From a virus (taxonomy: Duplodnaviria > Caudoviricetes), in the IMG/VR virus record IMGVR_UViG_3300037467_000326, positions 1 to 28,966 of that record: a DNA stretch of 28,966 nucleotides. One strand, given 5' to 3'. Both the position numbers and the translations under genes were made by a program. This document shows positions 199-27,765 of the stretch, piece by piece (within the stretch, counting starts at the first letter, position 1; each line of letters opens with the position of its first letter). Below the pieces are notes generated by a model. That model saw nothing but the letters and a program-made list of their open reading frames with translations, was not told where the DNA came from and searched no databases.

Positions 199-218
199 GA
201 AAGAAATGGCGGTAAAAT
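199..218 (+). promoter_or_regulatory. Candidate terS promoter motif AAAGAAATG-N3/4-GTAAAAT
   Basis: TAAAAT -10 at 213-218; motif recurs before portal and in unit B. Confidence 0.5.
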
Positions 219-258
219 GGAAATATATCGAAGAAAACGGAGGTGCTTTTAGAGCACA

Positions 259-516: not shown

Positions 517-2030
517 GTTGTAAGTATGACCAATGCTCCAGCCCATCAGTCACCTTGCATGGCTATTGCTTGGCTCATGGCTGGATGCCAACGCGCTACA
601 CACCATCCCTTACCGGTACTGAGGAGTTTGTCACTGATGGAGACAAACTCCTCAGAGTCATTGACAAGTACTGGAAGGAACGTGACGTAGCAGGGCAATT
701 CAACGCTGACCCATTCCAGCGCTGGATTATCAGGCATGCCCTGGAGCGCTACCCAGACGATTACCCAGACCCAGAGCTAGCAGGCCGCCTACGTTGGCGT
801 CAGTACTTCGTCAGCATGGGTGTTCAGAACGGTAAGTCAACGATTGGCGCAATGTTTGGCGTCTACGGCTTGCTGTTCCATGAGCACTCACCTTTGGTGC
901 TGTCCCTTGCACAGTCCAGGGAATCAGCTAAGGAAATCTACGAGCGTGTTGGATACACGGTCAGCGCTGTTGCTCAATTCAGCAAAGCAGCGAGGGTTAC
1001 CAAGGGGTCTGGTATCAGCCGCAAGGGTGTGCCAGGCAAGTACATCATCAAGGCATCTTCTGAGAAGGCCATCCAGGGTCTACCGGTCTCTTTGTGCATC
1101 TACGACGAAATGCACCTAACGACTGAGGCTCTGTTCAATCAGGCAAAGAAGCGAATCAGCGCTAGGAAAGACGGAATCATCATCGGACTAACAACCGCTG
1201 GTGATATGAACTCCAAGCTTCTCTTGGGGCTCTACAAGGAGCTTGATGCACTGATTGCCGAGCCTGACGAGACCAACCGGCTGGGTGGAGCTATCTGGGA
1301 AGCCCCCGAGGGTGCCTCACTGACCACAGAAGGGGCTGTAGAGGCTGCTAACCCGGCTGTCGCATGTGGACGCAAGCTCGCGTCTACCGTTCGCTCAGAC
1401 GCCCGTACAGACCACTGGGTTGAGCAGCAGCGATACACGCTCAACAGGTTCGTAGATGTCTTCAATTCATGGATTGACATGCCGGAATGGAATGCCTGTG
1501 TCGGCAAGGGACCGGTTTTGTCTGAAGGCGGACCATACGTCTTTGGCATTGACTCAGCAGACAACATGAATACCGCCACCATCACCATGACAACCAAGAA
1601 GGGTGACGTAGTTAAGTCACGAATGGTGGCAAGTCTGGTCAAGCCAACAACGGACCAGCTACTCAAGTACTGCCAGTACCTACGACGCAAGTACGGCGGA
1701 AGGGCAGCCTTTGTTATCTACAAGCGTTCCCTTAATGAGCTAGGGGAGAAGCTGAAGGAGCGTGGCGGATATGAGGTCTACAGCTTGAGTGACAGCGAGT
1801 TCTCAGAGGCTTGCAAGACCATCTACCGGCTAATCAGCCGTAAGCAATTCGACGTACGTAATGAAGAAGTACTGAGAATGCAGGTTCCAAAGGCCATCCG
1901 AAAGAACTACTACTCAGGATGGAAGTTGGACAAAACACATACCAGCGTGGAACTGGATGCACTGTATGCAACCGTCATTGGTGCATACATTGCCGAAACT
2001 AAGAAGATTGGACAGGCAGCAATCTGGTAA
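513..2030 (+). CDS. terL: Terminase large subunit
   Basis: Walker A-like GVQNGKST, Walker B CIYDEMH, LTTAG coupling motif, EAANPA, nuclease VFGID...LDALYA. Confidence 0.95.
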   Translation: MSCKYDQCSSPSVTLHGYCLAHGWMPTRYTPSLTGTEEFVTDGDKLLRVIDKYWKERDVAGQFNADPFQRWIIRHALERYPDDYPDPELAGRLRWRQYFVSMGVQNGKSTIGAMFGVYGLLFHEHSPLVLSLAQSRESAKEIYERVGYTVSAVAQFSKAARVTKGSGISRKGVPGKYIIKASSEKAIQGLPVSLCIYDEMHLTTEALFNQAKKRISARKDGIIIGLTTAGDMNSKLLLGLYKELDALIAEPDETNRLGGAIWEAPEGASLTTEGAVEAANPAVACGRKLASTVRSDARTDHWVEQQRYTLNRFVDVFNSWIDMPEWNACVGKGPVLSEGGPYVFGIDSADNMNTATITMTTKKGDVVKSRMVASLVKPTTDQLLKYCQYLRRKYGGRAAFVIYKRSLNELGEKLKERGGYEVYSLSDSEFSEACKTIYRLISRKQFDVRNEEVLRMQVPKAIRKNYYSGWKLDKTHTSVELDALYATVIGAYIAETKKIGQAAIW

Positions 2031-2050
2031 AAGGCAGCGGTTATGCTTTT

Positions 2051-2071
2051 GAAAGAAATGTGCCGTAAAAT
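2051..2071 (+). promoter_or_regulatory. Candidate leaderless portal promoter
   Basis: GAAAGAAATGTGCCGTAAAAT; -10 ends 8 nt before ATG 2080; no SD. Confidence 0.5.
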
Positions 2072-2079
2072 TGAATTAA

Positions 2080-3204
2080 ATGAGCAAGTTCATTGATTGG
2101 CTGACAGGAGAAAGCTATAAGACATCAATCGTTGATGAGATTATTGCGAATGCACCAACACAGCCACTAGAGAAGAGGGATGCACCAAGCATTCCGCCGC
2201 CTGGGTATGTAGCACGTACACCAGGAGCACCGGTCACCATTGAAACGGCTTTGAGTCTCTCAGTCGTTTACAGGTCTGTGTCCGTTCTAGCAACCATCAT
2301 TAGCCAGCTTGAGCTAACAGTCTCAACAGTCACTGGCAAGCCTCTGAAGACGTTGCCGGACAGAATTGCAAGGCCTGACTATCAGATTCCTCTATCTGAG
2401 TTTCTGAAGAAGACCGTTACCAGCCTTGCTACGTATGGCAATGCGTACTGGCGTCTATGGCGCACCACAGAAACGGCGATGCCAGACAGGCTAGAGGTGC
2501 TTAACCCAAACAGCGTCAGCATTGAGTACGACGCTGACGACAACAAGGTCTATGTCTATAAGGGTCGCAACGGCAACGTTGTTCGCTTGCAGCCATGGCA
2601 GGTCAGTCACCTAAAGCTCATGGTCAGCTTTGAGACCAACGTCGATTACGGCTCAGGACCAATCCAGCGATGTGCAGAAGAGATTCAGCATGCCCTTGAC
2701 CTGAGGGATTACGCACGCAGGGTCTTTGACGAGTACCCAAGCGGAATTGTCAGCGTAGAAGGCTACCTAGACGAAGACATGCGTGCCGAATACAAGGCAG
2801 CTTGGTACGCGGAACAGGTCAATGGCGAGCGCATTAAGTTCATCGGAAACAAGGCCAGCTACCAGCAGCTGGAGCAGAACCCTGAGACAACTCAGTACGT
2901 ATCTGCACAGCGTCTTGCTGATGCAAAGGTAGCGCGGGCTTTCGGAATGCCACCAAACATGGTCTTGGTTGAGGACGTGTCTAACAAGACGTACCAAAAC
3001 CTTCAGGACGTTGACAGGGCATTCATCCGCAACACGGTTGAGGAGTACCTGACTGTCATTGAGTCAGCATTCTCTGACCTCTTGTTCCCAAAGACAGTCA
3101 AGTTCAACACGGACGCATGGCTACGTGCATTGACCGTTGACACACCAGCAACACAAATCAACGAAGGAGGGCCGGTAGACGAAAGTCAGGCACCAACAGA
3201 GTAA
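2080..3204 (+). CDS. HK97-family portal protein
   Basis: ALSLSVVYRSVSVLA, LATYGNAY, VARAFGMPP motifs; position after TerL. Confidence 0.93.
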   Translation: MSKFIDWLTGESYKTSIVDEIIANAPTQPLEKRDAPSIPPPGYVARTPGAPVTIETALSLSVVYRSVSVLATIISQLELTVSTVTGKPLKTLPDRIARPDYQIPLSEFLKKTVTSLATYGNAYWRLWRTTETAMPDRLEVLNPNSVSIEYDADDNKVYVYKGRNGNVVRLQPWQVSHLKLMVSFETNVDYGSGPIQRCAEEIQHALDLRDYARRVFDEYPSGIVSVEGYLDEDMRAEYKAAWYAEQVNGERIKFIGNKASYQQLEQNPETTQYVSAQRLADAKVARAFGMPPNMVLVEDVSNKTYQNLQDVDRAFIRNTVEEYLTVIESAFSDLLFPKTVKFNTDAWLRALTVDTPATQINEGGPVDESQAPTE

Positions 3205-4751
3205 TGGAACTAGAAACACGAGATTTCGAACTGAGAGGATTCAGCGAGGACAGCCGCACCATCACTGGCATTGCCATTCCATACGGCAAGAAGGCCAACA
3301 TCGGTGGCGGCATGCAGGAGCAGATTCAGCGTGGTGCATTCGGTACCCCCGAGAACATTCCTCTCTTTTACGGACACAACCACCTTCAGGGCCGTATGCC
3401 CATCGGAAAGGTTGTAGCTGTCCGCGATACAGAGCACGGGCTAGAGATTGATGCCGTCATCTCTAAGACCGATGAGGGCGAGCGTGCTTACACGCTTCTT
3501 AAGGACAAGGTGCTTAGCAAGCTCTCAGCCGGATTCGTTCCGGTCGAAAACAAGTTTGACGGCGACACAGTTATCAGGACAAAGGCCGAACTAAAGGAGG
3601 TCTCCATTGTCCCGATGCCTGCCTATGCGCAGGCACAAGTCACGCAGGTTCGTGACAACCAAAATATTAAGGAGGTAGTCGAAAACATGACTACAGAAAT
3701 TGAAACAACCTCCGAGGATGTCACGGAGCTACGTGCGGAGTTTGACGCACGTCTTACGAACATCCAGCGTGAGGTATCCACCCTTGCACAGGGTGGCGGA
3801 AAGAATGACGCTGGTCCACAGTTCCGCTCAGGAATTGAGGCTTACCAGGCATTCCTAAAGGGTGACGACTCTGCCGTAAAGGAGATTCGTGCCTACGTTG
3901 GTGGAACTTCCGCCGACTTCGTAGCTGGTGAGGACTGGAAGGGTCTTCTAGGCGGAATCGTCAAGAAGAACCGTCCACTAGCTGAGGCATTCTCAAGTGG
4001 TCCTCTTGCAGATGGAGCAGAGAGCGTTACTTACGAGAAGATTGCTTCCGTAACCGGTGACGTTGCTGTTCAGGCTGCTGAGGGTGACGTGGTTGCAGCC
4101 CTCCAGGTCACAACTACAAAGGAAACTGCAACTGTTGAGACTCTTGCTGCTTACAGCAACCTCACGTTCCAGGCATTCCAGCGTGTATTGACCTCTTCTG
4201 GTCAGCTAACGCTTGACCGTCTTGCAGCTTCTTACGCAAAGGTCAGCAACGGCAAGGTCCGTACTGCAATGACCAGCGCAACTCCACAGGCTGGATTGAC
4301 TTCATACGCCTTGGCTTCAGCAACAGCAGACAAGTTCATTGCAACTGTCGTTGACGCTATTACCAAGATTGACCTAAACGGCGAGGGTGCTCAGGCAGAC
4401 TTCATCGTCGTATCTGGTGACGTATGGCAGAAGATGGCAAGCCTTGTTGACTCTGCAAGCCGTCCAGTATTCGACGTAAACGGAGATGGTTCTAACACCA
4501 TCGGTTCTTTCAACGCACGTCGCATTGTTGGACAAATCGTAGGATTGCCAATCATCTATGACTCTGGTCTCGCTGCATTGAGCTTCTACGTTGCAAGCCG
4601 TGACGCAGTAACAAGCTGGGAGTCCGCAGGAGCACCAGTACGTATGGAGGATGTAAACATCCAGCAGTTGTTCCGTACGTTCGCTCTCTACGGATACTTC
4701 GTAGCAGCCGCAACTAACGAAAACGGTCTCGTCAAGCAGACCCTTTCCTGA
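3204..4751 (+). CDS. Prohead protease-major capsid protein fusion
   Basis: HK97 protease motifs (ITGIAIPY, LFYGH, LSAGF, LKEVSIVPMPAY) fused to a capsid domain (GQIVGLPIIYD). Confidence 0.92.
   Translation: MELETRDFELRGFSEDSRTITGIAIPYGKKANIGGGMQEQIQRGAFGTPENIPLFYGHNHLQGRMPIGKVVAVRDTEHGLEIDAVISKTDEGERAYTLLKDKVLSKLSAGFVPVENKFDGDTVIRTKAELKEVSIVPMPAYAQAQVTQVRDNQNIKEVVENMTTEIETTSEDVTELRAEFDARLTNIQREVSTLAQGGGKNDAGPQFRSGIEAYQAFLKGDDSAVKEIRAYVGGTSADFVAGEDWKGLLGGIVKKNRPLAEAFSSGPLADGAESVTYEKIASVTGDVAVQAAEGDVVAALQVTTTKETATVETLAAYSNLTFQAFQRVLTSSGQLTLDRLAASYAKVSNGKVRTAMTSATPQAGLTSYALASATADKFIATVVDAITKIDLNGEGAQADFIVVSGDVWQKMASLVDSASRPVFDVNGDGSNTIGSFNARRIVGQIVGLPIIYDSGLAALSFYVASRDAVTSWESAGAPVRMEDVNIQQLFRTFALYGYFVAAATNENGLVKQTLS
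3669..3689 (+). promoter_or_regulatory. Internal SD and in-frame ATG (3687) for stand-alone capsid protein
   Basis: AAGGAGGT then in-frame ATG at the domain junction; conserved in unit B (ATG 19245). Confidence 0.7.
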
Positions 4752-4762
4752 GGTGATTTGAG

Positions 4763-5077
4763 ATGACGATGGAAGACCTAAAGGCATTTCTGGATATCCC
4801 ATCCAGCGATACCAGCCAAGACCTCCGCATTCAGGAATGCTGGACCAACGCTGGTGAGTTGCTGACGCTGGCAACAGCTAAGGCCTTCCGCGTCATTCCT
4901 CAAAGCGTATTGGACTACTGCCAGCTAAGGATTGGTAAAGACATGTTTGACAGTCGGAACACAACCGCTGGCGGTAGTCAGTTCACAACCTTTGAGGGTG
5001 TGACAAGTGCGCGGGCTGCAAGAGACCCATTGGCTGTTGTCGCACCAGTCCTCGCTATGTACGTGGTGAGGTACTGA
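4763..5077 (+). CDS. Head-tail connector/adaptor
   Basis: MEDLKAFL start, ARDPL motif, position after capsid. Confidence 0.8.
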   Translation: MTMEDLKAFLDIPSSDTSQDLRIQECWTNAGELLTLATAKAFRVIPQSVLDYCQLRIGKDMFDSRNTTAGGSQFTTFEGVTSARAARDPLAVVAPVLAMYVVRY

Positions 5078-5478
5078 TGTCAGCACAGTCAGACGCACGA
5101 GCGGAAATCACCGGCATTCTGAATGCCATCACGTTCAACGGACAGCCTCTAGTAGTTAGGGACAACCCAACGAACGTAAATCCATGGTGTGTAGTCATTG
5201 CAAGTGCTGACCCAGTACTTACCAATGAGAACACCAGTGGCTCTGTGGGCGATTACGAATACAACCTGCTATTGCAGTTTGTAGGCGGTAGTCCAGAAAC
5301 ATCCTCTCTGGCAGTCCTTGAGGACATGGTAGAGAGCGCAATTCTTGCGCTGGGTAACAGTGAGTACTGGTACCCAGGAAACGCAAGCGCACCTTTCGTG
5401 GGTGATGGTGGCGACGGAAAGGTCTATTTGACTATTACGTTGCCGGCAACAAAATACATTGAAATTGGAGGGGCATAA
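5077..5478 (+). CDS. Tail terminator/completion protein (probable)
   Basis: 133 aa between connector and major tail; synteny. Confidence 0.6.
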   Translation: MSAQSDARAEITGILNAITFNGQPLVVRDNPTNVNPWCVVIASADPVLTNENTSGSVGDYEYNLLLQFVGGSPETSSLAVLEDMVESAILALGNSEYWYPGNASAPFVGDGGDGKVYLTITLPATKYIEIGGA

Positions 5479-5873
5479 TGCCTACTAAGAGACTACGCAG
5501 CAAGAACGCATTCTTCAGCCTTAACGCCGTTGACTACTCAGACCAGATTGTTGACCTTGAATTGGTTGTAGAGACTGACGCACCAACCACCTTCACTGGT
5601 CCTGAGGGTAGGTACTTCCTACGCGGTACCGGCCTTGCATCTGTAAAGGCTTCAACACTGCACAGGTACCTACGTTCTAACCCAAACGTGGCTGCCATCC
5701 CGTTTGTCTTTGGTCCAGGTGGAGAGACACCATCTGCTGACAACCCAGTCTTCACTGGAACAGTCACGCTCGGTCTAGAGCCAAACATCAAGGCTGGTCC
5801 ATACGGCGAAACATCAACATTCACCATTGATATTGAATGCGATGACAAGCCAACCGAAGACCTAGCACCTTGA
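5478..5873 (+). CDS. Major tail protein
   Basis: VDYSDQI, PSADNPVFTGTV motifs typical of small actinophage tail tubes. Confidence 0.8.
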   Translation: MPTKRLRSKNAFFSLNAVDYSDQIVDLELVVETDAPTTFTGPEGRYFLRGTGLASVKASTLHRYLRSNPNVAAIPFVFGPGGETPSADNPVFTGTVTLGLEPNIKAGPYGETSTFTIDIECDDKPTEDLAP

Positions 5874-5883
5874 GGTTAAGCCC

Positions 5884-6234
5884 ATGACTAACGGAATTGA
5901 GGTCAATGGGACTGAGGCGGTTGCTCAAAGCCTCCAAGACTTTGCGGATGCAGTCGGTAAGCAGGAACAGACGTTCCTCAAGATTGGCGGCATCTTGGTT
6001 GAAGAGGCTAAGAGCATCGTTCCAGTAAGAACGCACAAGCTACAGGGAAGCATCGTTGCTAAGGCAACTGACAACAGTGTCACGATTACCGCAGGCAACA
6101 ACGCAGTTGAGTACGCAGGTGTCATTCACAGACGCAGGGCTTACTTGACAATCGCGCAGTACAACAAGGAAGACGAAGTAGCTCAGGTTATGGCTAAGGC
6201 GATTGATGGCCTAATCAAGCAGCACTTCGAATAA
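5884..6234 (+). CDS. HK97 gp10-like neck/tail protein
   Basis: AKSIVPVRTHKLQGSI and VEYAGVIH motifs. Confidence 0.75.
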   Translation: MTNGIEVNGTEAVAQSLQDFADAVGKQEQTFLKIGGILVEEAKSIVPVRTHKLQGSIVAKATDNSVTITAGNNAVEYAGVIHRRRAYLTIAQYNKEDEVAQVMAKAIDGLIKQHFE

Positions 6235-6252
6235 ATAAACTAGGAGAGAAAC

Positions 6253-6669
6253 ATGAGCAAGACAATTACGATTCCAGGAATCATCAGGTTCTTTGGAGCA
6301 CTGACATACAAGGAGCGAATCCACATTCAGCGTCGTATGGATGTCTCCATTGCTGAGGTCATGGGAAATCCACTTCACCCATTGGCTGATGAGTTGGCTA
6401 TTGAGATGATTTATGCAGCGGCGCGCAGGCTAAACCGTGATGACATTACGCTCGATTCATTGCAGGAAATGGACGTTCCAGAGTTGGACCTTGTAATGAG
6501 AGAGCTTTTCGCTGCTCTTGGCTTTGATGACCAGGAGATTGAGGTGGATGAGAATGGTGTCCCTTTAGTGATGGGCTCTCAGACAAAGAGCGAATCATCA
6601 GAAGACACATCCGAAACGGAGAACTCTTCGACAAGTACTACTGGTGCTTCAGTCTCGGATGGAGCTTGA
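6253..6669 (+). CDS. Tail assembly chaperone (gpG-like)
   Basis: Before tape measure; GGAG RBS; slippery site inside. Confidence 0.75.
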   Translation: MSKTITIPGIIRFFGALTYKERIHIQRRMDVSIAEVMGNPLHPLADELAIEMIYAAARRLNRDDITLDSLQEMDVPELDLVMRELFAALGFDDQEIEVDENGVPLVMGSQTKSESSEDTSETENSSTSTTGASVSDGA

Positions 6670-6770
6670 CACCAGAGCACTACGACACGCTCACACCAGA
6701 TGAGCGAGACGTGATGTTTGAGGCTTTCAACGAATATATGGAGGACAGACAGAAGGATAATGGCGAATAG
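6561..6770 (+). CDS. -1 frameshift extension of the chaperone (gpGT-like)
   Basis: C CCT TTA at 6561-6567; -1 frame open to TAG 6768-6770 (...GELFDKYYWCFSLGWSLTPEHYDTLTPDE...), conserved in unit B. Confidence 0.85.
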   Translation, partial: PFSDGLSDKERIIRRHIRNGELFDKYYWCFSLGWSLTPEHYDTLTPDERDVMFEAFNEYMEDRQKDNGE

Positions 6771-8472
6771 ACCAATCGAGCTTAAGGCAACCCTTGATGC
6801 ATCAGACGTAGATAAGAACGTCAAGAAGATGGCAGCCGGGTTGCAAGACATCCCAGATGCAGCCGGTAAGGCATCTGGGGAAATGCGCAACCTCGCAGAC
6901 TCAACAGACCAGACAGCTACCAAGACAGGCATCATGGCATCCGCTCTGGGTGCCTTTGCTGGTGGCCTAGAGGCTGTTGGACTGGAGAAGTACGGAGTAG
7001 CCCTCCAGGCATCTGCCGTTGGTGTAGACGTATTCTCCAACGCTTCTGACGTAGCCACTCTGGCTCTTGAGTCCAAGTACGTAAAGCTGCTTAGGGATAA
7101 GGCAGCAACCGTTGCCTCTACGGCAGCATCTCTTGCTGCTAGTGCAGCCTCTAAGGCCATGGCTGCTGGTCAGTGGCTACTGAATGCTGCCTTGAGTGCT
7201 AACCCTATTGGCTTGGTAGTTGTGGCTATTGGTGCCTTGGCTGCTGGACTGGTCTTGGCTTACAAGAAGTCTGAGACCTTCCGAAACATCGTCAATGGCG
7301 TATTCGGCGGTATCAAGGATTTTGTCTGGCCTATCATCAAGTTCCTTGGTGAGGGAGTCGTTAAGGCTCTTAGTGCCGTTCTGAACTTCGTACTCGGACC
7401 ATTCAAGGCTATTGGTGAGAAGTTTGGTCTGCTTAAGGATGATACGAATGACCTGAAGAAGGCCATTGTTGATACCGGCCCACCTATGGAGAACTTCGAA
7501 GAGTCACAGAAGAGGCTTGGTGAAGAAACCGACAGAGCACAGCAATACATTGATGACCAGAAGAAGGCTCTTGACGACTACGTTGACTCTCTGACTGCTG
7601 CACAGAATGCAGTACTTGACCTGGCGGATAAGCAAATCGGCGTTGCCGAGGCTACTGATGCTGCTTCTAAGGCTGCCAAGGAAAACGGCAAGACTCATGA
7701 CATTAATACAGAGAAGGGCCGTAACAACGAAAAGGCTCTACACGCTCTGGCTAAGGCAACCAATGAGAACACGGTTGCCATGGTTCAGAACGGTCAGGCT
7801 GAGCTAACCACTGCTGCTAAGGCAGAGGCATCCCGAAAGAACTTCGTCAAGCTGGCTACCCAGATGGGCTATTCAAGGGCTGAGGCTGAGGCTCTTGCTC
7901 GCAAGATGATTGCCATTCCTAACGTGTCTCGTGAGGCAAAGCTGAGAGGTAATGTCGCAGACCTTGATGCCAAGATTGCTGCTGCAAAGAAGCATCTTGG
8001 TGATAAGGGACTGACTGACCCTCAGAAGACCAAGATTAAGGCCGACATCGCAGACTTGGTAGCCAAGAAGGCGGCGGCTGTGAAGGAGCTAAACGCTCTG
8101 CCTAAGACCAAGACGATTGTTGTCCAGTGGAAGAACACAAGCAGTGGTTCCATTCCTCTCAACACAATCGGAAGCCTTGGACGTAGGGCAGCTGGTGGAC
8201 CAGTTGACAAAAACACTCCGTACATTGTTGGTGAGAACGGTCCCGAGATTCTTGTCCCAGACGGCAGCGGAACCATCATTCCTAACCACAAGCTGTCATT
8301 CGCCAGTCCACGCGGTACGGCTACGGCTGCTGGCAGTGCTCCGTCAATCACCTTCAACAACAGCACATTCATTGGTTCTTCAAAGGCTGAGCTTCAGCGC
8401 TGGCTACGTGAGCTATTGGAGTCCGACCTTCGTTACAACGGTGCTGGATGGCTGAAGGAGAGATTGGCATGA
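6760..8472 (+). CDS. Tape measure protein
   Basis: Ala-rich, QWLLNAALSANPIG and AGGPV..YIVGENGPE motifs; start set by alignment to unit B. Confidence 0.92.
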   Translation: MANRPIELKATLDASDVDKNVKKMAAGLQDIPDAAGKASGEMRNLADSTDQTATKTGIMASALGAFAGGLEAVGLEKYGVALQASAVGVDVFSNASDVATLALESKYVKLLRDKAATVASTAASLAASAASKAMAAGQWLLNAALSANPIGLVVVAIGALAAGLVLAYKKSETFRNIVNGVFGGIKDFVWPIIKFLGEGVVKALSAVLNFVLGPFKAIGEKFGLLKDDTNDLKKAIVDTGPPMENFEESQKRLGEETDRAQQYIDDQKKALDDYVDSLTAAQNAVLDLADKQIGVAEATDAASKAAKENGKTHDINTEKGRNNEKALHALAKATNENTVAMVQNGQAELTTAAKAEASRKNFVKLATQMGYSRAEAEALARKMIAIPNVSREAKLRGNVADLDAKIAAAKKHLGDKGLTDPQKTKIKADIADLVAKKAAAVKELNALPKTKTIVVQWKNTSSGSIPLNTIGSLGRRAAGGPVDKNTPYIVGENGPEILVPDGSGTIIPNHKLSFASPRGTATAAGSAPSITFNNSTFIGSSKAELQRWLRELLESDLRYNGAGWLKERLA

Positions 8473-10034
8473 GCAAGATTCGTAACTATGACATCGACTT
8501 GCTGACCTTCTGGATTGCTGAGCCGGGGTTCATTCTTGGTGAGGGAATCCTTGGTGTGAACAAGCTTGGTGGCGACCAAACGGCAGTACAGATTGACATT
8601 GGTGAGTTCTACAGCATGACCATTGATTCACCAAACACTACAGACGGCATCTTTGTGCATCGAGAGGTGCGCAGGCTCACCCTGAATGCAAAGGTAACTG
8701 CACCAATCAATTATGACGGCAAGCGCATCATCGTTAAGTATGACGACATTGAAGAGTTCTATGGGACTGTACGTGAGTACGACGTTCAGGAGTCATGGAC
8801 TGATGCTGTCAATACTCCTGAGGGGCTTCCTTATCGTGAGTACACGGTCAGCATTGTTGCCATGTCTGGTGAGGAGCGCTTTGCAAACACTCCTACACCA
8901 GACAAGAACTTCAATGGTCAGACGATGACTGACAGAGTTACAAGCTATCTCGGTACCAGCACCTACCTACAGATTCCAGATTCTGCTAGAGACATCAACT
9001 ATGGCCTTGCAGCGAATGCGCAAACTGCCAGTGTTGGGCATCTGGTTTATGCGTCAGATGACATGCCAAGCCTGCTTGAGTCCATCAGGAGCGAAATGCG
9101 CCTGATGAACTATCACTACATCTACGAGCCATGGAATTCCAACGTCATCCTGAGAACTAACTCACGATGGCTAGGACCAGATGGGGCAGACGAGTCAACC
9201 GCTCTCACCTTTACCGATAACCCGGCTGACATTGTTGTCACTGGTGGAGATAGCTTTGTTCATGACGGCAACGTCGTTGGCTATACCCAGCGCTCCCTTG
9301 GCAAGAACAGCAGTTACTTCATCAAGGGTGTGACTATCACAATGACCGACAGCAGTGATGTGACAACAACGTACGGACCATACCGGGCATCATCAGCATT
9401 CCCTCAGGATATTGACATCAACATTGGGCGTCAGTCTTCTGCTGGAGAAGCCTTGGCTAAGAAGATTGCTTCCACCTTGCCTCTAAGGTCTAAGGAGCAG
9501 CAGTTCACCTACAGAATCCGCACCAAGCTTCAGTCACGTAAGCAGATGGGTCTTGATGGTGAGGGACCGGGTATGGCGGTACTGAAGTCACAAGGTGTTA
9601 CCAGTCGCATTGCCATTCTTGGAGTGACTCATGTGGTCACCAGAGATGAATGGACTGTTGAATACGCATGTGGACCTGAGCACCTCATTTCACGCGAGTC
9701 AGACAAGCAGCCGTTCATTGTTACGGACTTCTCTGTGACTGAGAACGTGCCAGGAGTCCAGTGGAAGTTCGAATGGACAACTCCAGACCTGAATTCCAAC
9801 GTGCCGCTGTACGCAATCATTTACAGCAGTGGACCTGATGGGGTTGGACCTGGAGAGATTTACCGTGGGGCTGCAAAGGCACCGGGTGTAGTGGAAGACA
9901 TCTTCATCAGTGGTTTCGCGTCAGGCTTCTACACGTTCTATGTGTACTACACCAATAACCCGACTGCTGGTGACTACTCGATTAGCTACATCTACAGTCC
10001 GGGCTCAGCATCGCAGACGCTACTAATTTTCTAA
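8469..10034 (+). CDS. Tail tip/minor tail protein with C-terminal FN3-like beta domain
   Basis: Follows tape measure with ATGA overlap; GFILGEGILG N-terminal motif. Confidence 0.75.
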   Translation: MSKIRNYDIDLLTFWIAEPGFILGEGILGVNKLGGDQTAVQIDIGEFYSMTIDSPNTTDGIFVHREVRRLTLNAKVTAPINYDGKRIIVKYDDIEEFYGTVREYDVQESWTDAVNTPEGLPYREYTVSIVAMSGEERFANTPTPDKNFNGQTMTDRVTSYLGTSTYLQIPDSARDINYGLAANAQTASVGHLVYASDDMPSLLESIRSEMRLMNYHYIYEPWNSNVILRTNSRWLGPDGADESTALTFTDNPADIVVTGGDSFVHDGNVVGYTQRSLGKNSSYFIKGVTITMTDSSDVTTTYGPYRASSAFPQDIDINIGRQSSAGEALAKKIASTLPLRSKEQQFTYRIRTKLQSRKQMGLDGEGPGMAVLKSQGVTSRIAILGVTHVVTRDEWTVEYACGPEHLISRESDKQPFIVTDFSVTENVPGVQWKFEWTTPDLNSNVPLYAIIYSSGPDGVGPGEIYRGAAKAPGVVEDIFISGFASGFYTFYVYYTNNPTAGDYSISYIYSPGSASQTLLIF

Positions 10035-10051
10035 CAAAGGAGGAATTATGC

Positions 10052-10669
10052 ATGACATTTATTGATTTTACAGACGGCAACATCTTTGACGAAGCAGCAG
10101 CGGATGTCTTGATGCGTCAGACCAATATCCATTTGCCAACTACCGCCGACATTACGTCACAGCTTGGCAGCGGTATTCGAACGTTGGGCATGACTGCATG
10201 GGCTGACGATGTGGAGACTATGTACATGTGGAATGGCACCAATTGGATTCCATGGGCAAGCACAGAGAAGACATCATCAGTTGGCTTCACAGCAGGAGGA
10301 ACGAACATCACTTTCGGCAACGCAACTGTTTCTCAGAAGTGGCGCTACTCAGGCGGCATGGTCAAGTGGAACTACCAGTTCACACAAGGCAGCACAAGCA
10401 ACATGCAGTCCGGTAACTATGCTCTATCCCTACCCGTTGCGGTTCATGCTGACCAGCAATTCGGCGTATTGGGACAAGTCAGCTTCTATGACTCAAGCGC
10501 AACAACGATGTATGGCCGTATTGCTGTCAATCTTGGTAACACAACCAATATGGCTATGGTGTCTGAGGGTGGTGTACGTATGTCCACAACGAACCCAATT
10601 GCACCTGGTGTTGGTGACGTATTGAGCATCAGCTTGCTATATAGACCAGCAGTAGGCGCGTTCCTGTGA
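10052..10669 (+). CDS. Minor tail / probable receptor-binding protein
   Basis: Beta-rich, MYMWNGTNW, GNYALSLPV; strong AGGAGG RBS. Confidence 0.7.
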   Translation: MTFIDFTDGNIFDEAAADVLMRQTNIHLPTTADITSQLGSGIRTLGMTAWADDVETMYMWNGTNWIPWASTEKTSSVGFTAGGTNITFGNATVSQKWRYSGGMVKWNYQFTQGSTSNMQSGNYALSLPVAVHADQQFGVLGQVSFYDSSATTMYGRIAVNLGNTTNMAMVSEGGVRMSTTNPIAPGVGDVLSISLLYRPAVGAFL

Positions 10670-10752
10670 CAGAAGAGCAACTGAAGCTAGTAGCAGCAGC
10701 ACTCTTGCTGGGAATGGTTATCAGGATGCTGACAGACAAGGATGATGAATGA
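10666..10752 (+). CDS. 28-aa hydrophobic peptide MTEEQLKLVAAALLLGMVIRMLTDKDDE
   Basis: GTGA overlap with upstream stop; unit B copy differs only by two synonymous changes. Confidence 0.6.
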   Translation: MTEEQLKLVAAALLLGMVIRMLTDKDDE

Positions 10753-10776
10753 CTTCTTCTAACTCTCCGGAAGAAG

Positions 10777-10818
10777 GGCAGACTCTCACTTAGAAATAGG
10801 TGGGAGTCTGTCTATTTT
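10777..10818 (+). terminator. Terminator of structural operon
   Basis: 16-bp stem (with G-U pairs), GAAA loop, TATTTT tail; conserved at 26271-26312. Confidence 0.8.
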
Positions 10819-10826
10819 GACAGCCT

Positions 10827-10835
10827 TGATACGAT
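10827..10835 (+). promoter_or_regulatory. Extended -10 promoter reading across attP
   Basis: TGaTACGAT right after the terminator; identical in unit B. Confidence 0.6.
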
Positions 10836-10854
10836 TGAGCCTCAATATCCCTTC

Positions 10855-10984
10855 GAGAGATGAACCTACACGCTGATGTCTCGTACCTACTCAGTTCAAA
10901 CTTTCGGGTGCCAGATGAACGTCCACGACTCCGAGCGGCTCCGCGGGCTGCTGGACGTGTAAATAACGTGTGGATTCATCTCTC
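10855..10984. other. attP region A bracketed by an 18-bp inverted repeat
   Basis: GAGAGATGAACCTACACG (10855-10872) vs CGTGTGGATTCATCTCTC (10967-10984), 16/18, enclosing a host gene fragment next to the integrase. Confidence 0.8.
10876..10962 (+). other. miaB: 5' fragment of host miaB (replacement N-terminus)
   Basis: [28 protein letters not shown], the MiaB N-terminal GCQMN signature; last 19 sense codons all end in G/C. Confidence 0.9.
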
Positions 10985-11002
10985 AGACGTTCTGAGAGGT
11001 GA
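10976..11002 (+). promoter_or_regulatory. Hairpin occluding integrase RBS
   Basis: TCATCTCTCAGA-cgt-TCTGAGAGGTGA; SD GAGGTG in the 3' arm; ATG at 11005. Confidence 0.7.
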
Positions 11003-11004
11003 GC

Positions 11005-11760
11005 ATGACAATCAGACAGAAGCTCTATCAACAAGCTATGGAGCGAGGTCTACGTCAGACCACTGTCCGCAGTTACGAGACGCTATTAGGCCGACTGGGC
11101 GTCTTGGACCTGGACTACATCAGTCCAGATGACCTGTATGAGCGGCTGTACCGCATCGACAACCCCAATACCCGTAGGGCTGCTGTCATTGCCTGCCGTT
11201 CTGTTTTGGGCATCAAGCTCAAGATTCCCAAGGGTGTCCCGCGCAAGTACAACCTTCCTGATGAGGACACGCTCCGTCTTGCTCTGATGACAAGCCCGCA
11301 TGAAATCCGGGGTTTGTTGATGATGTACGGAGGACTCCGCATTGGTGAGGCATGCGCAACCGTCAACACAGATGCCAACGGAGACCAATTGGCGGTTACA
11401 CGCCAGGTCATCCAGCTACACAAGACGGGTGAGCCCACTGTCACTCGGATAGCCCCGGTCAAAACGACAGAGGGAGCTATCACCATCCCGTATTGGCTCT
11501 CTGAGCGACTTTCAGGAGTCACAGAGACTGCCAAGCCTGACAGTGTGCGAGAGAGCCTCAGAAGGGCAGGAATCAAGGTTGGGATAGCTCTCAACCCGCA
11601 CATGCTCCGCCACTGGTACGCAACAACTCTCCTTGAGCGAGGGCTTCCTTTCAGTCTTGTCTCAAAGCAGATGCGTCACTCTGACATTGCAGTCACGCTC
11701 AGGACGTATTCACAGACCAAGAGCAGTGATGTGCACCGGGTCTTTGGGGAGTCGCTATGA
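11005..11760 (+). CDS. int: Compact tyrosine integrase A
   Basis: GLRIGE (R), VKT (K), HMLRH, MRHSDIAVTLRTY (H,Y); alternative GTG start at 10999. Confidence 0.92.
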   Translation: MTIRQKLYQQAMERGLRQTTVRSYETLLGRLGVLDLDYISPDDLYERLYRIDNPNTRRAAVIACRSVLGIKLKIPKGVPRKYNLPDEDTLRLALMTSPHEIRGLLMMYGGLRIGEACATVNTDANGDQLAVTRQVIQLHKTGEPTVTRIAPVKTTEGAITIPYWLSERLSGVTETAKPDSVRESLRRAGIKVGIALNPHMLRHWYATTLLERGLPFSLVSKQMRHSDIAVTLRTYSQTKSSDVHRVFGESL

Positions 11761-11939
11761 CTCTCAGGAAGGCATCAGAGGTCTCTGTAGGTGACTTTGT
11801 GTCCATGTATGGGGCTTGGTATGAGGTATCGAGTATCAAGGCCACGTTCCACAACCCGCCGAAATTGGCGTTCACGTTTGAGAACGGCAAGACAGTCATC
11901 TTCAACCCTGAGGACGTGTTGCTATTGCTCGACATGTAA
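11757..11939 (+). CDS. Conserved 60-aa small beta-rich protein, function unknown
   Basis: ATGA overlap with int; near-identical protein in unit B with synonymous changes. Confidence 0.75.
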   Translation: MTLRKASEVSVGDFVSMYGAWYEVSSIKATFHNPPKLAFTFENGKTVIFNPEDVLLLLDM

Positions 11940-11973
11940 TCTGTAGTTGCCGGTTTCCTGTTTGCACCGGTAG

Positions 11974-12011
11974 TGGAGAACCCCAGTCAACCCCCGGCTG
12001 GGGTTCTTCCA
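11974..12011 (+). terminator. GC-rich hairpin ending the int operon
   Basis: GAACCCCAGTC...GGCTGGGGTTC; weak U tail; identical in unit B. Confidence 0.6.
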
Positions 12012-12031
12012 TGTCTAGCCTGAGAATGTAT

Positions 12032-12073
12032 TGGCACTAAGCTGCCACGTTCAAAATTGGCACTAACATGCCA
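12032..12073. promoter_or_regulatory. Two TGGCA-N6-TGCCA palindromic boxes
   Basis: 12032-12047 and 12058-12073; arms and 26-bp spacing kept in unit B while spacers differ. Confidence 0.7.
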
Positions 12074-12128
12074 TTCGCGCTTTACCATAAGTGCTGGTTA
12101 TCGGTCAGCAGCCATAACGAGAAATCCG

Positions 12129-12291
12129 TATAATGGAACATGTAAGAGACAAACACCGTGTTGGAGCAGAACACAGGAGGACTTACACCCACAGTTTTCA
12201 TTCCCTGATATGTGAATGGAGGAACCCCCGACCCTGCTCCGGTCGGGGGTTCTTCTTTTGCAAAATTCACATATCAAAGGAGCAAGCAGTA
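12129..12291 (+). promoter_or_regulatory. rep promoter (TATAAT) and structured leader with internal terminator
   Basis: Nested perfect 12-bp stems, U-tract, complementary 7-nt loops; conserved in unit B. Confidence 0.75.
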
Positions 12292-13017
12292 ATGAACATG
12301 GAAGTAAAGGCCCTATGGGCTATCAGAGACGCAAGAGGACTGAGCTACGCAGAGAAGGCCTTCCTCTTTGTCGTCGCATCAAGAGGCTGCATGACAGCCA
12401 AGTGGGACACAGCAGCAGCGGATATGGGCATGTCCAAGAACACCTACTACAAGACCCGCGATTCCCTACTAGGGAAAGGTCTCATCATCAAGGAGACCCG
12501 CTTCAACAACACAACGGTCTACGCAGTCTGCCTTGACAGTCTTCTTTCCCTCACAGGGAATGAGAATGAGAGCCCTGAGCAACCTCTTTCCCTCACAGGG
12601 AATGAGTTTTCCCCCACAGGGAATGACTTTTCCCTGTCAGGCGAAACTAAGGTAACTATTAAGGGAACTACTAAGGAAACTGATAGCGCTGTCGCTGACG
12701 CTCCAGCGCTCACCTTGCAAGAAGATGAAAGCAAGGAAGAAGAGCAAACAGTTGTTGAGACATCCTCCTTGCCTTCAGAAGGAACCCGGATTTCCTCATT
12801 CCTTGACAGGGAAACTCGCCGTAGGGAGGCAGCGGCTGCCGAAATGGCGCGGCTGGAAGAGGCAGAGCAGAACGTCTCAGAGGAAGAGCTAGAACGCAGG
12901 TCTCTTGGCAAGGATGAACGAGAGACCTACCGCGTCTTGACTAAGAAGATGCACATGAGCCATGCAGCAGCAATGGACGAAATCCAGCGACGAAGGGAGG
13001 AACCTGAGGAATGGTGA
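12292..13017 (+). CDS. Replication initiator (N-terminal HTH, internal iterons)
   Basis: LSYAEKAFL...AAADMGMSKNTYYKTRDSLLGKGLI HTH; lambda O-like layout; start by alignment to 27766. Confidence 0.8.
   Translation: MNMEVKALWAIRDARGLSYAEKAFLFVVASRGCMTAKWDTAAADMGMSKNTYYKTRDSLLGKGLIIKETRFNNTTVYAVCLDSLLSLTGNENESPEQPLSLTGNEFSPTGNDFSLSGETKVTIKGTTKETDSAVADAPALTLQEDESKEEEQTVVETSSLPSEGTRISSFLDRETRRREAAAAEMARLEEAEQNVSEEELERRSLGKDERETYRVLTKKMHMSHAAAMDEIQRRREEPEEW
12462..12681. repeat. Probable origin: palindromic iterons plus three 12-mers
   Basis: TTCCC(T/C)-N3-AGGGAA at 12462, 12546, 12588, 12609 and degenerate 12630; A(C/T)TAAGGNAACT x3 at 12646-12681. Confidence 0.8.
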
Positions 13018-13094
13018 TTGAGGATTGGGAACCAGACGAAGAGGACATCTACTGGTACTTGGTAATGCGAGAAGAGGATGGATGCTTTGACTGA
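13014..13094 (+). CDS. 26-aa acidic/aromatic peptide
   Basis: GTGA overlap with rep stop; MIEDWEPDEEDIYWYLVMREEDGCFD; frame kept in unit B. Confidence 0.5.
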   Translation: MIEDWEPDEEDIYWYLVMREEDGCFD

Positions 13095-13215
13095 AATCCG
13101 CCGGATTTTCTACTGTGACGCTGACCATGAACCAATTTCATCAACAGTCTCAGACGAATGTCCCTCTTGTGGAGAGAAGATGCGGGATATTGGCTACTTT
13201 GAATACATGTCGTGA
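13078..13215 (+). CDS. 45-aa zinc-ribbon-like protein
   Basis: FYCDADH...CPSCGEKMRDIG; conserved at 28549. Confidence 0.65.
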   Translation: MDALTEIRRIFYCDADHEPISSTVSDECPSCGEKMRDIGYFEYMS

Positions 13216-13257
13216 GATAATTGAAATACAACATCTGTCGTATATGTTGCACCTAGC

Positions 13258-13305
13258 GAAGAGCACCAGGATTTCTTGCCCTGGTGCTCTTCAATTTGGC
13301 TTTTT
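13258..13305 (+). terminator. Terminator-like hairpin
   Basis: Perfect 13-bp GAAGAGCACCAGG/CCTGGTGCTCTTC followed by T-rich tail; only the loop varies in unit B. Confidence 0.7.
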
Positions 13306-13375
13306 AAAACAAGCAATGAGATAATGAATATATGAGGTTGAAAGACCTTAAATACGCTAGGAGTAACAATGACGA

Positions 13376-13930
13376 ATGAAGACATGCAAGTTTGAGCAAG
13401 ATGGGGTTAGGTGCGAACGCAAGCACTCAGCCCGTGGTTGGTGCGCAACGCACTACCAGCAGCAGTACCTATTTGGTGAGACGTGGCCTATCGGGTCACC
13501 TGGACTCCCAAGAGGAAAGACGCTCGACACACTGGACAAGCCAAAGACCTGCCACTGTGGCAAGCCGGTAAGAAGCAAGGGCCTTTGTGCGAACCACTAT
13601 CAAAGCGAGTACTACCAGCAGGGCAAGGCTGAGCGTCGAAAGACAAACAACAAGACCTTTGTAGGCAACAAGGGTGCTCACCTACGCATCAAGGCACAGC
13701 TAGGCAAGGCAGCCAATTACCAGTGCAACAACCTGGACTGTGACAAGCAGGCTCTTGACTGGAGTCTCAATCACGATGCACAGGAGATTTACACAGGTGT
13801 TGGACTCGCGGGTATTGGGCGAGCGTTCAGCCTGGACATCTTTAGCTATGAACCCCTGTGCCGCACTTGTCATATGGAGAAGGACGGCACGCTAGGAATC
13901 AACTTCCGAAAGACCGGGGGTTCAGAATGA
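13376..13930 (+). CDS. Zn-finger repeat protein with C-terminal HNH-like domain
   Basis: Two C..C..RG(W/L)C..HY-type motifs; ALDWS...YEPLCRTCH. Confidence 0.7.
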   Translation: MKTCKFEQDGVRCERKHSARGWCATHYQQQYLFGETWPIGSPGLPRGKTLDTLDKPKTCHCGKPVRSKGLCANHYQSEYYQQGKAERRKTNNKTFVGNKGAHLRIKAQLGKAANYQCNNLDCDKQALDWSLNHDAQEIYTGVGLAGIGRAFSLDIFSYEPLCRTCHMEKDGTLGINFRKTGGSE

Positions 13931-14082
13931 TTGCCTTGCTTATCATCACAGGCCTACTGACTGGCTACCTTTTCGCCGGGGCTGTCACAGGAAAGCTAAA
14001 GCGACACAACGCAGCAAACGAATTCAGGGTCAGCGAGGAGCTACCCACAAGAACACTATTTCAAAGGAGAGTACAGAGATGA
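13927..14082 (+). CDS. 51-aa membrane protein
   Basis: MIALLIITGLLTGYLFAG hydrophobic N-terminus, basic tail; ATGA overlaps at both ends. Confidence 0.6.
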   Translation: MIALLIITGLLTGYLFAGAVTGKLKRHNAANEFRVSEELPTRTLFQRRVQR

Positions 14083-14288
14083 ACGAAACACAGGCAGACG
14101 CACTACAGCAGGCATCAGCAGAGTTGCAGGCACGTATTGATGACCTAAAGAGTCAGAAGGATGCAGCAGAGCAAGCCCTTGAGAACGTAGCAGCATTGCT
14201 CCCAGCATTTGAGGAGAAGCTTGCATCACTTAAGGACGGGCTACCAGAGGCTCAGCCAACGGTCATTGACGGAGGTGCGAGCGCATGA
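14079..14288 (+). CDS. Coiled-coil hypothetical protein
   Basis: AAGGAG RBS; heptad pattern. Confidence 0.7.
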   Translation: MNETQADALQQASAELQARIDDLKSQKDAAEQALENVAALLPAFEEKLASLKDGLPEAQPTVIDGGASA

Positions 14289-14740
14289 AGAAGACAATCA
14301 AGTACTCACTTATTGGGATTGCCGGAATCCTAGGGCTACTCACAACCATTGGAATCGTTGGTGCTATCGCGGGGGTAGACACCAAGCCTGAGGCAAAGAC
14401 AGTTGTACAGACACCAGCTGTAGCACCACAGCCAGCAAAGCCAGCGGTAAAGGCAACACCAGCAGTCAAGCCAACACCAAAGCCGAGCACAAACGCGCCG
14501 GTTACAAGAGAGGATGCCTACCTCATTGTCATGCGTCACGAATACCCACAGCTAAAGAAGACCAGTGACAAGGTATTGCTCAATGCAGGGCACTCAGTCT
14601 GCGACATGTACAAGGCTGGCTACACCTTTGAAGAAGTTGCCTACGCAGCCATTGATAGTGGCCTGGACGCACAAACAGCCGGGTTCTTGATTGGTGCATC
14701 AACAGCAGCCTTCTGCCCTCAGTACAGTGATGCCTCATGA
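14285..14740 (+). CDS. Membrane-anchored DUF732-like protein
   Basis: N-terminal TM helix, P/A/K linker, AGHSVCD...FLIGASTAAFCPQY. Confidence 0.75.
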   Translation: MKKTIKYSLIGIAGILGLLTTIGIVGAIAGVDTKPEAKTVVQTPAVAPQPAKPAVKATPAVKPTPKPSTNAPVTREDAYLIVMRHEYPQLKKTSDKVLLNAGHSVCDMYKAGYTFEEVAYAAIDSGLDAQTAGFLIGASTAAFCPQYSDAS

Positions 14741-14907
14741 ATGACGCAAAGCAACACGTCATTAAGACTCGCATTGAGTACTTGGAAGAACAGGTACGGG
14801 TCAACAACGACTACCTCAAGACCAGGCTTACGCAGGTTGCCGAGCTAGAACGAACGATTAAGAAGTTTGAGGATGAGCTAGAAGCTCTCCGAGAGGAGGA
14901 CGAATGA
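14737..14907 (+). CDS. 56-aa coiled-coil hypothetical protein
   Basis: MNDAKQHVIKTRIEYLEEQ...; ATGA overlaps at both ends. Confidence 0.65.
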   Translation: MNDAKQHVIKTRIEYLEEQVRVNNDYLKTRLTQVAELERTIKKFEDELEALREEDE

Positions 14908-15149
14908 CAACCAAGAAGACACCAGTTGAGAAGGCAGTAGAGATTCTTACTCCCTACGTCGAAGGCTCAGAGCTTTTCGATAAGCCGGAACAGGGATGGG
15001 AAGTAACCATCCAGAACGGACCAAAGAAGCTAACGCTCACGTTCGCAACTGAAGAGGAATACGTATGGTTCCGCAAGACGACAGGCGTAGTACGCAACCC
15101 AAAGCGCGTGGACCTGGACAAGGCAGTGAACCTAGTAGCAGTGCAGTGA
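14904..15149 (+). CDS. Hypothetical protein
   Basis: AGGAGG RBS, 81 aa. Confidence 0.65.
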   Translation: MTTKKTPVEKAVEILTPYVEGSELFDKPEQGWEVTIQNGPKKLTLTFATEEEYVWFRKTTGVVRNPKRVDLDKAVNLVAVQ

Positions 15150-15171
15150 GCCTTATGGCTCTAGCAAGACC

Positions 15172-15213
15172 AGAGGCAGCCAGCAAATACCGTGAACATA
15201 GCTGGCTGCCTCT
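15172..15213. other. Perfect 13-bp inverted repeat before the HNH gene
   Basis: AGAGGCAGCCAGC-N16-GCTGGCTGCCTCT. Confidence 0.65.
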
Positions 15214-15250
15214 TGCACGAATAGCGCGGGTTATCAGAGAGGAGGTACCA

Positions 15251-15547
15251 ATGTCAGAACAGAGCATGAGAGGACCAGCCTGGAAGAAGACAGCAGAAGC
15301 AATCAAGAAGAGGGACAACTACACATGCGTCTATCAATGGGGCAACTGCTCCTACGACACAGACCTAACGGTTGACCACATCATTCCGCTGGCAGTGTGG
15401 AAGGTGGAGTTCCCAGACGATGACCCAAACCAGGACTGGAATCTAGCAACGGCATGCAGGAGTTGTAACGGCAGCAAGAAGGACAAGAGATTGACAAGAA
15501 GGAATTGGGTAGACCCTGAGGTATTCCCAGAAGGACTACTGAGATAA
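15251..15547 (+). CDS. Packaging-associated HNH endonuclease (HK97 gp74-like position)
   Basis: RDNYTC...TVDHIIP...NLATACRSCN; GGAGGT RBS; upstream of terS. Confidence 0.88.
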   Translation: MSEQSMRGPAWKKTAEAIKKRDNYTCVYQWGNCSYDTDLTVDHIIPLAVWKVEFPDDDPNQDWNLATACRSCNGSKKDKRLTRRNWVDPEVFPEGLLR

Positions 15548-15873
15548 GCAGGCAGGAATACCCAATAGGAAGAACCGTGACAGGGCAAATACCAGAACCG
15601 TCAATGAACTCTCCAATGAAACTTCCACGATGCGGAAATAGTCGGCGCATACCGAATGAATATCCAGGCATAGGGGATGGATATGCATGGGTAATGCATG
15701 GTCATTCACGCATTCAGGCTTGAATAGGAGCGTTTTTCTCAGGATGAGTTTGAACACCGTCAGTTGTACCCCAAATTGAATACCCAGGCCGGCAAAAATG
15801 TGGACCGTATTTGAAAAGAAATGGCGGTAAAATGGGAATATATCGAAGAAAACGGAGGTGCTTTTAGGCACAA
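15548..15873. other. Non-coding HNH-terS gap, probable cos/packaging region
   Basis: Canonical location; exact cut site not determinable from sequence. Confidence 0.5.
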
Positions 15874-27604: not shown

Positions 27605-27765
27605 TATAATGGAACATGTAAGAGAAACACCGTGTTGGAGCAGAACACAGGAGGACTTACACCCACAGTTTTCATTCCCTGATATGTGAATGGAGGAACC
27701 CCCGACCCTGCTCCGGTCGGGGGTTCTTCTTTTGCAAAATTCACATATCAAAGGAGCAAGCAGTA
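27605..27765 (+). promoter_or_regulatory. rep promoter and structured leader (B)
   Basis: As unit A apart from a 2-nt indel outside the stems. Confidence 0.75.

What the first reader, a model, noticed from the sequence alone, without database searches (positions are those of the whole stretch)
12129..12297. rep leader with kissing-loop/anti-SD logic: possible RNA-only immunity in a repressor-less temperate element
Seen: after TATAAT lies hairpin GTGTT-GGAGCAG-AACAC (loop 12163-12169). Next is a terminator stem 12222-12252 with loop CTGCTCC (12234-12240) and a U-tract, nested in a perfect 12-bp stem (12206-12217/12265-12276). CTGCTCC is the exact complement of the first loop and pairs 6 bp with the rep SD GGAGCA (12279-12284). 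TTCATT (12197-12202) can also pair over the rep ATG. All of these are identical in unit B. Established: P4 CI RNA, P1 c4 RNA and the IncI repZ pseudoknot control lysogeny or replication through short loop complementarities. Inference: this leader replaces a CI repressor.
Basis: partly seen in the sequence, partly recalled or inferred. Interest (0 to 1): 0.82.

Follow-up and report, generated by a model that had tools for sequence, protein, structure and literature searches.

The report
Loop-coded RNA switch in actinophages
Small temperate soil phages carry, ahead of their replication module, an RNA leader with two exactly complementary 7-letter loops that change together across 15 relatives; it likely acts as an on/off switch whose short form would silence phages with the same loop code, possibly standing in for a repressor protein.

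Summary
The structure is real at the stated coordinates. It belongs to an RNA family with no Rfam match, in small integrase-bearing actinophages. In 15 of 19 related elements a promoter is followed by a weak hairpin (loop L1) and a strong terminator whose loop (L2) is the reverse complement of L1. There are 14 different loop codes, and pairing is kept in all 15. In a scan blind to complementarity, 11 of 13 promoter-linked terminators show it, against 4 of 61 other hairpins. Folding models have L1 capturing L2 as it emerges and delaying terminator closure; masking L1 restores it. No conserved antisense promoter was found. Best reading (0.55): an attenuator in which terminated short RNA masks L1 in trans, like P4 CI RNA, giving loop-coded repression and immunity. 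No HTH repressor was detected in the window's two phages, but one close relative has both the leader and a divergent Xre gene. Three gene-less members place the leader before a structured noncoding element, possibly an RNA-primed origin. There are no expression or functional data.

The parts
12129..12134 (+). -10 hexamer TATAAT of the leader promoter (start near 12141, inferred)
   Evidence: TAnnnT invariant in 15 of 15 aligned leaders
12158..12174 (+). Hairpin 1, weak 5-bp stem presenting loop L1
12163..12169 (+). L1 (GGAGCAG): predicted anti-terminator seed and target of the short RNA
   Evidence: covaries with L2 in 15 of 15 leaders; folding
12175..12184 (+). Purine run AGGAGGA plus RACTT motif; possible processing site between the hairpins (inferred)
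   Evidence: purine fraction 0.70 vs 0.46; RACTT in 9 of 15 linkers vs 1.4 in shuffles; no conserved uORF
12197..12217 (+). 5' arm of the outer stem including anti-SD TTCC (12201-04)
12218..12260 (+). Intrinsic-terminator-like hairpin (16 bp) and U-tract
12234..12240 (+). L2 (CTGCTCC), terminator loop, reverse complement of L1
12265..12284 (+). 3' arm of the outer stem and rep SD
12292..13017 (+). Rep-like initiator (241 aa) with internal iteron-like repeats at 12545-12641
   Evidence: PHROG 270 E 2.8e-5; repeats D18; 16 homologs
12032..12073 (.). Two TGGCA-N6-TGCCA palindromes upstream of the promoter; binder unknown
   Evidence: half-sites largely kept in unit B and L043 while spacers change
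10905..10955 (+). attP core of unit A, matching the 5' end of actinobacterial miaB
   Evidence: G1015 prophage sits in miaB
11005..11760 (+). Tyrosine integrase of unit A
   Evidence: Pfam PF00589
11757..11939 (+). 60-aa KOW/SH3-like protein, possible RNA-binding helper (only in units A and B, L043, L044)
   Evidence: model pLDDT 96; Foldseek EF-P/eIF5A domain I, E about 0.01, not significant
27605..27765 (+). Same leader in unit B (L1 27637-43, L2 27708-14; rep 27766-28485)

Best explanation
The leader carries two complementary loops and a strong terminator-like hairpin ahead of the rep gene, and it likely works as a self-regulating attenuator whose terminated short RNA would repress new transcripts in trans. 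Shown: promoter-like -10, L1 hairpin, terminator with L2 equal to the reverse complement of L1, covariation over 14 codes, and an outer stem covering the SD. Inferred steps: (1) In a naive cell L1 pairs with L2 as L2 leaves the polymerase and delays hairpin closure, so some transcripts read through into the replication module. (2) Transcripts that do terminate give a ~118-nt RNA; cleavage in the linker (near 12182, a mycobacterial RNase E-type RR^CNU site) would remove L1 and leave a ~78-nt RNA with L2 always exposed. (3) This RNA would bind L1 of nascent transcripts, its own or those of an incoming phage with the same code, so the terminator closes and replication stays off. (4) Rare read-through RNA would be kept untranslated by the outer stem. 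The 7-nt code would define immunity groups.
For: Covariation: the cognate complement is 6-8 nt in 16 of 16 leaders, sum 111 vs 64.7+-4.4 permuted, 0 of 200,000 (the set was partly chosen on complementarity). Blind test: 11 of 13 promoter-linked terminators vs 4 of 61 other hairpins (elements are related, so not independent). Folding at L2+6 nt: L1:L2 paired >=0.81 and terminator <=0.07 in 15 of 15 core leaders; with L1 masked the terminator is >=0.79 in 10 of 15. L2 is open (>=0.71) in RNA lacking hairpin 1 in 16 of 16. No antisense -10 (>=5/6) lies downstream of L2 in 16 of 16. The SD pairs with the linker arm at 0.50-0.99 in 10 of 10 gene-bearing leaders. Loops differ between close relatives (unit A vs L043: same GTGTT/AACAC stem, 2 of 7 loop pairs changed). 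The downstream gene is Rep-like in 6 of 10. Precedent: P4 CI and P1 c4 (PMC4825925, PMC5320573, passages).
Against: There are no RNA or functional data. At L2+12 nt the terminator wins at equilibrium even with L1 free in 13 of 15, so antitermination would have to be kinetic. The folding model cannot represent a true kissing complex, in which both hairpins coexist. An unprocessed short RNA would quench its own L2. The processing motif was picked after the fact, is missing in 6 of 15, and the looser RRCNU form is barely enriched (11 vs 7.6; 318 of 5,000). L043 has a divergent Xre-HTH gene, and G1015, G982 and Mulchroom have GntR-HTH genes. L051 and G892 share one code although their integrases are distant. 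Masking L1 does little at L2+6 nt in L043, L044, L049 and G1178. Covariation alone does not tell cis from trans.
Confidence: 0.55

Rival explanations
1. Cis-only switch: L1 and L2 form an intramolecular kissing or pseudoknot structure that sets termination or SD access. It is flipped by a protein (for example the 60-aa KOW-like protein, Rep, a helper-phage or host stress factor) or a ligand, and the short RNA has no trans role.
For: Covariation fits cis pairing equally well. The L1-L2 gap is 41-73 nt in 15 of 15, enough to span the stem. Some loop positions are biased (A-U in 14 of 16, G-C in 12 of 16). A KOW-like protein lies upstream in 4 elements.
Against: There is no conserved sequence pocket (only TAnnnT is invariant). 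The KOW-like protein was not found by blastp in the other elements. Fast change of the loop code between close relatives is easier to explain by specificity (inference).
Confidence: 0.25
2. L2 represses translation by pairing directly with the rep SD, L1 being a decoy.
For: 6-bp match in the window. Matches of 4-5 nt near the SD in G1015, L047, L048 and L050. The duplex-energy permutation is borderline with the window included (7,915 of 200,000).
Against: Not significant without the window (WC 33 vs 32.7; energy 30,982 of 200,000). Five core leaders have no adjacent gene yet keep L1:L2. A relative in run X11 has SD AAGGAAG. L1 resembles an SD, so the match can be incidental.
Confidence: 0.07
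3. Classical counter-transcript control (pT181, pIP501 or IncI type): a cis-antisense RNA blocks the L1:L2 pairing.
For: Same logic upstream of rep genes (PMC8383071, passages). Weak Rfam ctRNA_p42d hit, 24 bits vs cut-off 50.
Against: No TANNNT at all on the minus strand in the window from L1 to about 100 nt past L2. No >=5/6 site lies downstream of L2 in 16 of 16; the one hit, in L047, lies inside the terminator arm.
Confidence: 0.05

Closest known systems
Phage P4 CI RNA (seqA/seqB/seqC)
   Same: A small RNA from the same leader is proposed to cause premature termination of replication genes by pairing with an upstream complement; processing is needed (PMC4825925, passage).
   Different: Here the determinant is the loop of an intrinsic terminator and only the upstream target is conserved (no seqC equivalent). 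P4 termination is Rho-linked and CI matures by RNase P (recalled). No Rfam match; actinobacterial hosts.
P1/P7 c4 antisense RNA (Rfam C4)
   Same: Processed ~77-nt RNA with variable loops that set immunity specificity (PMC5320573, passages).
   Different: c4 has three stem-loops, two target loops, RNase P processing, and occludes an RBS of an antirepressor operon beside a C1 protein repressor (the last point recalled). Here there is one 7-nt loop, and no Rfam C4 hit.
Gifsy-1 IsrK
   Same: Short terminated and long read-through isoforms; the short one acts in trans on its own mRNA (PMC4825925, passages).
   Different: IsrK activates translation; here repression is inferred. No uORF; no Rfam hit.
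IncI repZ pseudoknot and pT181/pIP501 attenuators
   Same: Loop pairing or alternative stems in a rep leader switch expression (PMC8383071, passages).
   Different: These need a counter-transcribed RNA, for which no conserved promoter was found.
RNA-based origins of cluster A mycobacteriophage prophages
   Same: A noncoding RNA replaces repA (PMC7157519, passages and Discussion); possible parallel to the downstream element of gene-less members.
   Different: No sequence match to mycobacteriophage records. Those phages are parABS plasmid prophages; these carry integrases.

Membership tests
P4 CI-type immunity RNA | Complement of the RNA's loop upstream in the same leader (seqA) | tested here: met
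   15 of 15 core leaders
P4 CI-type immunity RNA | Second complement downstream (seqC) | tested here: not met
   no excess over permuted loops
P4 CI-type immunity RNA | Processed RNA acts in trans and confers immunity | not testable with these tools
   needs RNA data and immunity assays
Rfam C4 / isrK / ctRNA families | Covariance-model score above the gathering threshold | tested here: not met
   window best 24 bits vs 50; 0 hits in 12 loci; only tRNAs in 4 more
Counter-transcript attenuators (pT181, pIP501, IncI Inc) | Antisense promoter opposite the leader | tested here: not met
   consensus scan only
Counter-transcript attenuators (pT181, pIP501, IncI Inc) | Mutually exclusive terminator and antiterminator folds before rep | tested here: inconclusive
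   predicted only as a transient state
Leader-peptide attenuators | Conserved uORF | tested here: not met
   the in-frame ATG at 12133 overlaps the -10 box and the frame is broken in unit B
Repressor-less temperate phage | Integrase and att site present | tested here: met
Repressor-less temperate phage | No DNA-binding repressor gene | tested here: inconclusive
   no HTH family in 88 window ORFs, but undetected folds remain possible and L043 has an Xre gene

The most novel reading that the evidence does not exclude
A widespread actinophage lineage keeps lysogeny and superinfection immunity with RNA alone. The loop of the terminator is itself the repressor, a 7-letter code defines immunity groups, and the same switch gates either a Rep protein or an RNA-primed origin shared with large lytic Streptomyces phages.
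Probability: 0.3. Interest if true: 0.92.

Novelty: new variant of a known kind. Interest (0 to 1): 0.82.

Why it matters
RNA-based phage immunity is known mainly from enterobacterial P4 and P1. Here an uncatalogued family with natural, orthogonal 7-nt codes sits in small actinophages, including the cultured satellite Mulchroom, so it can be tested now. If it works in trans, it explains how compact temperate phages without a CI gene stay silent, shows a minimal terminator-loop-as-repressor design, and offers orthogonal RNA switches for Streptomyces and relatives.

Tried and rejected
Exact hairpin scan in viral contigs: 9 loci, 2 real (units A and B), 7 unrelated. Rep searches in phage and plasmid records found nothing. 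The Rep profile reached distant ICE-like loci without the leader. Empty genome searches: 0 of 39 and 0 of 8. Sequencing runs: no RNA holder listed. Contigs laid on the leader showed only unit A/B alleles and short loose ends. Leader not found in G1290 (whole 14.6-kb element seen), G1324:C7 (contig ends) or G124 (5 kb seen). L045 and L046 lack the region; L053-L056 (distant integrases) had none. G982 has loops but no -10 and a 24-nt gap: doubtful, left out of the core 15 but included in the 16-element tests. Purine run extending the antiterminator: weak (12 of 16 above the shuffle mean, 6.0 vs 4.5 bp). The loop-exchange control agreed but is not independent and is not used as evidence. MAFFT could not align the loops, so no covariance model was built. 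Atlas search for the 60-aa protein: best 0.89, no family. Earlier findings of the scan: none.

Full report
Observation. The 7-nt complement arises in 62 of 20,000 shuffles, and as a hairpin loop in 1 of 20,000. The window holds two related ~15.5-kb siphophage-like genomes, most likely joined by the assembler; each exists as its own contig (L017 is circular; L018/L013). Unit B is therefore not independent evidence. Both have tyrosine integrases. Unit A's attP holds the 5' end of miaB: a 51-bp core matched at up to 98%, with matches in 275 of 301 Actinomycetes genomes (MiaB confirmed). Unit B's attP reads like the end of ychF (label recalled, not tested). The gene after the leader is a Rep-like initiator (PHROG 270) with internal iteron-like repeats.

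Finding relatives. A Rep profile found a 31.8-kb prophage in miaB of G1015 (1 of 401 genomes). Its leader has the same layout with loops GGTCCAG/CTGGACC. The integrase led to the satellite phage Mulchroom, with loops GACCCAA/TTGGGTC. An integrase profile gave 15 viral loci and matches in 3 of 331 and 5 of 291 genomes. Of 19 elements scanned, 15 have a clear leader, 1 is doubtful (G982) and 3 have none (G1290 whole; G1324:C7 and G124 partial).

What is conserved. All 15 have a TAnnnT -10, L1 at 12-33 nt after it, a purine run, a linker, and an 11-19-bp terminator-like hairpin whose loop complements L1 over 6-8 nt, in 14 different codes. The permutation test gives 111 vs 64.7+-4.4, 0 of 200,000, but the set was partly selected on complementarity. 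The scan blind to it gives 11 of 13 promoter-linked terminators with >=6 nt against 4 of 61 other hairpins in the same elements. The elements share ancestry, so these are not independent draws. Unit A and L043 have near-identical integrases and the same hairpin-1 stem but different codes. Rfam has no match.

What is not conserved. The L2-SD pairing holds in the window but not in the family (33 vs 32.7 without the window). Instead, in 10 of 10 gene-bearing leaders a pyrimidine-rich arm before the terminator is predicted to pair over the SD (0.50-0.99; SD windows set by hand). The downstream gene is Rep-like in 6 of 10, weakly sigma-like in L047, and unassigned in 3. Five leaders have no adjacent gene. 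In 3 of them (Mulchroom, L044, L052) a ~330-nt noncoding element follows, shared with lytic Streptomyces phages such as MulchMansion, with 27 of 59 predicted pairs changed on both sides among 4 sequences and a terminal G-tract. An RNA-primed origin is my inference.

Mechanism. Folding of growing transcripts has L1:L2 paired (>=0.81) and the terminator unformed six bases past L2 in 15 of 15; masking L1 lets it form in 10 of 15. Twelve bases past L2 the terminator wins in 13 of 15 regardless. L1 is thus a plausible kinetic antiterminator, not an equilibrium one, and the model cannot show true kissing. No conserved antisense promoter or uORF was found, which leaves the terminated sense RNA, with L2 exposed, as the natural L1 blocker. 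It would need to lose its own L1. RACTT lies in 9 of 15 linkers (1.4 expected; chosen after the fact) and fits the RR^CNU preference of mycobacterial RNase E (PMC10641625, abstract and passages). In the window this would leave ~78 nt. Trans action, processing and immunity are all inferred.

Repressor question. No HTH family was found in 88 window ORFs (earlier 29 and 31). Against a strict replacement: L043 has a divergent Xre HTH_3 gene (E 2.6e-12); G1015, G982 and Mulchroom have GntR HTHs; L051 has an NsdA-like HTH; many have Lsr2. The Mulchroom paper calls integrase plus GntR-HTH its lysogeny module; the terms 'non-coding' and 'intergenic' do not occur in its main text (PMC10690885, passages; supplements not seen). 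A 14.9-kb corynephage uses a protein repressor (10.64898/2026.10.29.762952, abstract), so small size alone does not imply RNA control. For relatives only the region from the integrase to ~2.5 kb past the leader was scanned.

Known systems. It works most like P4 CI and P1 c4 (PMC4825925, PMC5320573, passages) but fails membership: no downstream target, no Rfam match, and the determinant is a terminator loop. It differs from pT181 and IncI control in lacking an antisense promoter (PMC8383071, passages). PMC7157519 (passages, Discussion) gives precedent for RNA origins in actinophages; PMC13587820 (passages) describes another Mulchroom-like satellite whose genome I did not examine. Ten literature searches showed no description of this leader. 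The library lacks most subscription papers, and motif catalogues outside Rfam were not checked.

Verdict. A real, uncatalogued RNA family with strong covariation; new variant of a known kind; trans-acting attenuator 0.55; interest 0.82.

Noticed in passing
L041:9456-9789; L044:1626-1981; L052:3078-3428; L067:1497-1809: ~330-nt covarying structured noncoding element ending in a G-tract, shared by small temperate elements and large lytic Streptomyces phages; no Rfam hit on the Mulchroom copy; candidate RNA-primed origin.
   Followed up: partly
window 12032-12047 and 12058-12073; L043 ~5630-5695: Two TGGCA-N6-TGCCA palindromes with largely conserved half-sites and variable spacers; binder unknown.
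   Followed up: partly
window 11757-11939: 60-aa protein folds as a KOW/SH3-like barrel resembling EF-P/eIF5A domain I (not significant); overlaps the integrase stop.
   Followed up: partly
window 10876-10962: attP supplies a replacement 5' end for host miaB; the same site is used by the G1015 and G1290 elements.
   Followed up: yes
window 26365-26424: Unit B attP reads like the 3' end of ychF (recalled label); matches upstream of the Mulchroom integrase.
   Followed up: partly
window 1-28966: Most likely a chimeric join of two phages that share the rep module but have different integrases (35% identical) and att sites.
   Followed up: yes
window 13216-13300; L043:6749-6825; L048:1398-1484: Second promoter-like site with a short-spaced terminator-like hairpin after rep, without loop complementarity in the relatives checked; possible second small RNA.
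   Followed up: no
L034:15573-15760: Decayed second rep-like fragment with palindromic repeats upstream of the G1015 leader.
   Followed up: no
L034:12752-13023: The G1015 prophage carries three tRNA genes (Pro, Leu, Val), a sigma-like gene and Lsr2.
   Followed up: no
window 1-15615: No endolysin gene was identified in unit A (the PHROG 'endolysin' hit lies on the tape measure protein); lysis may depend on a helper or an unrecognised gene.
   Followed up: no
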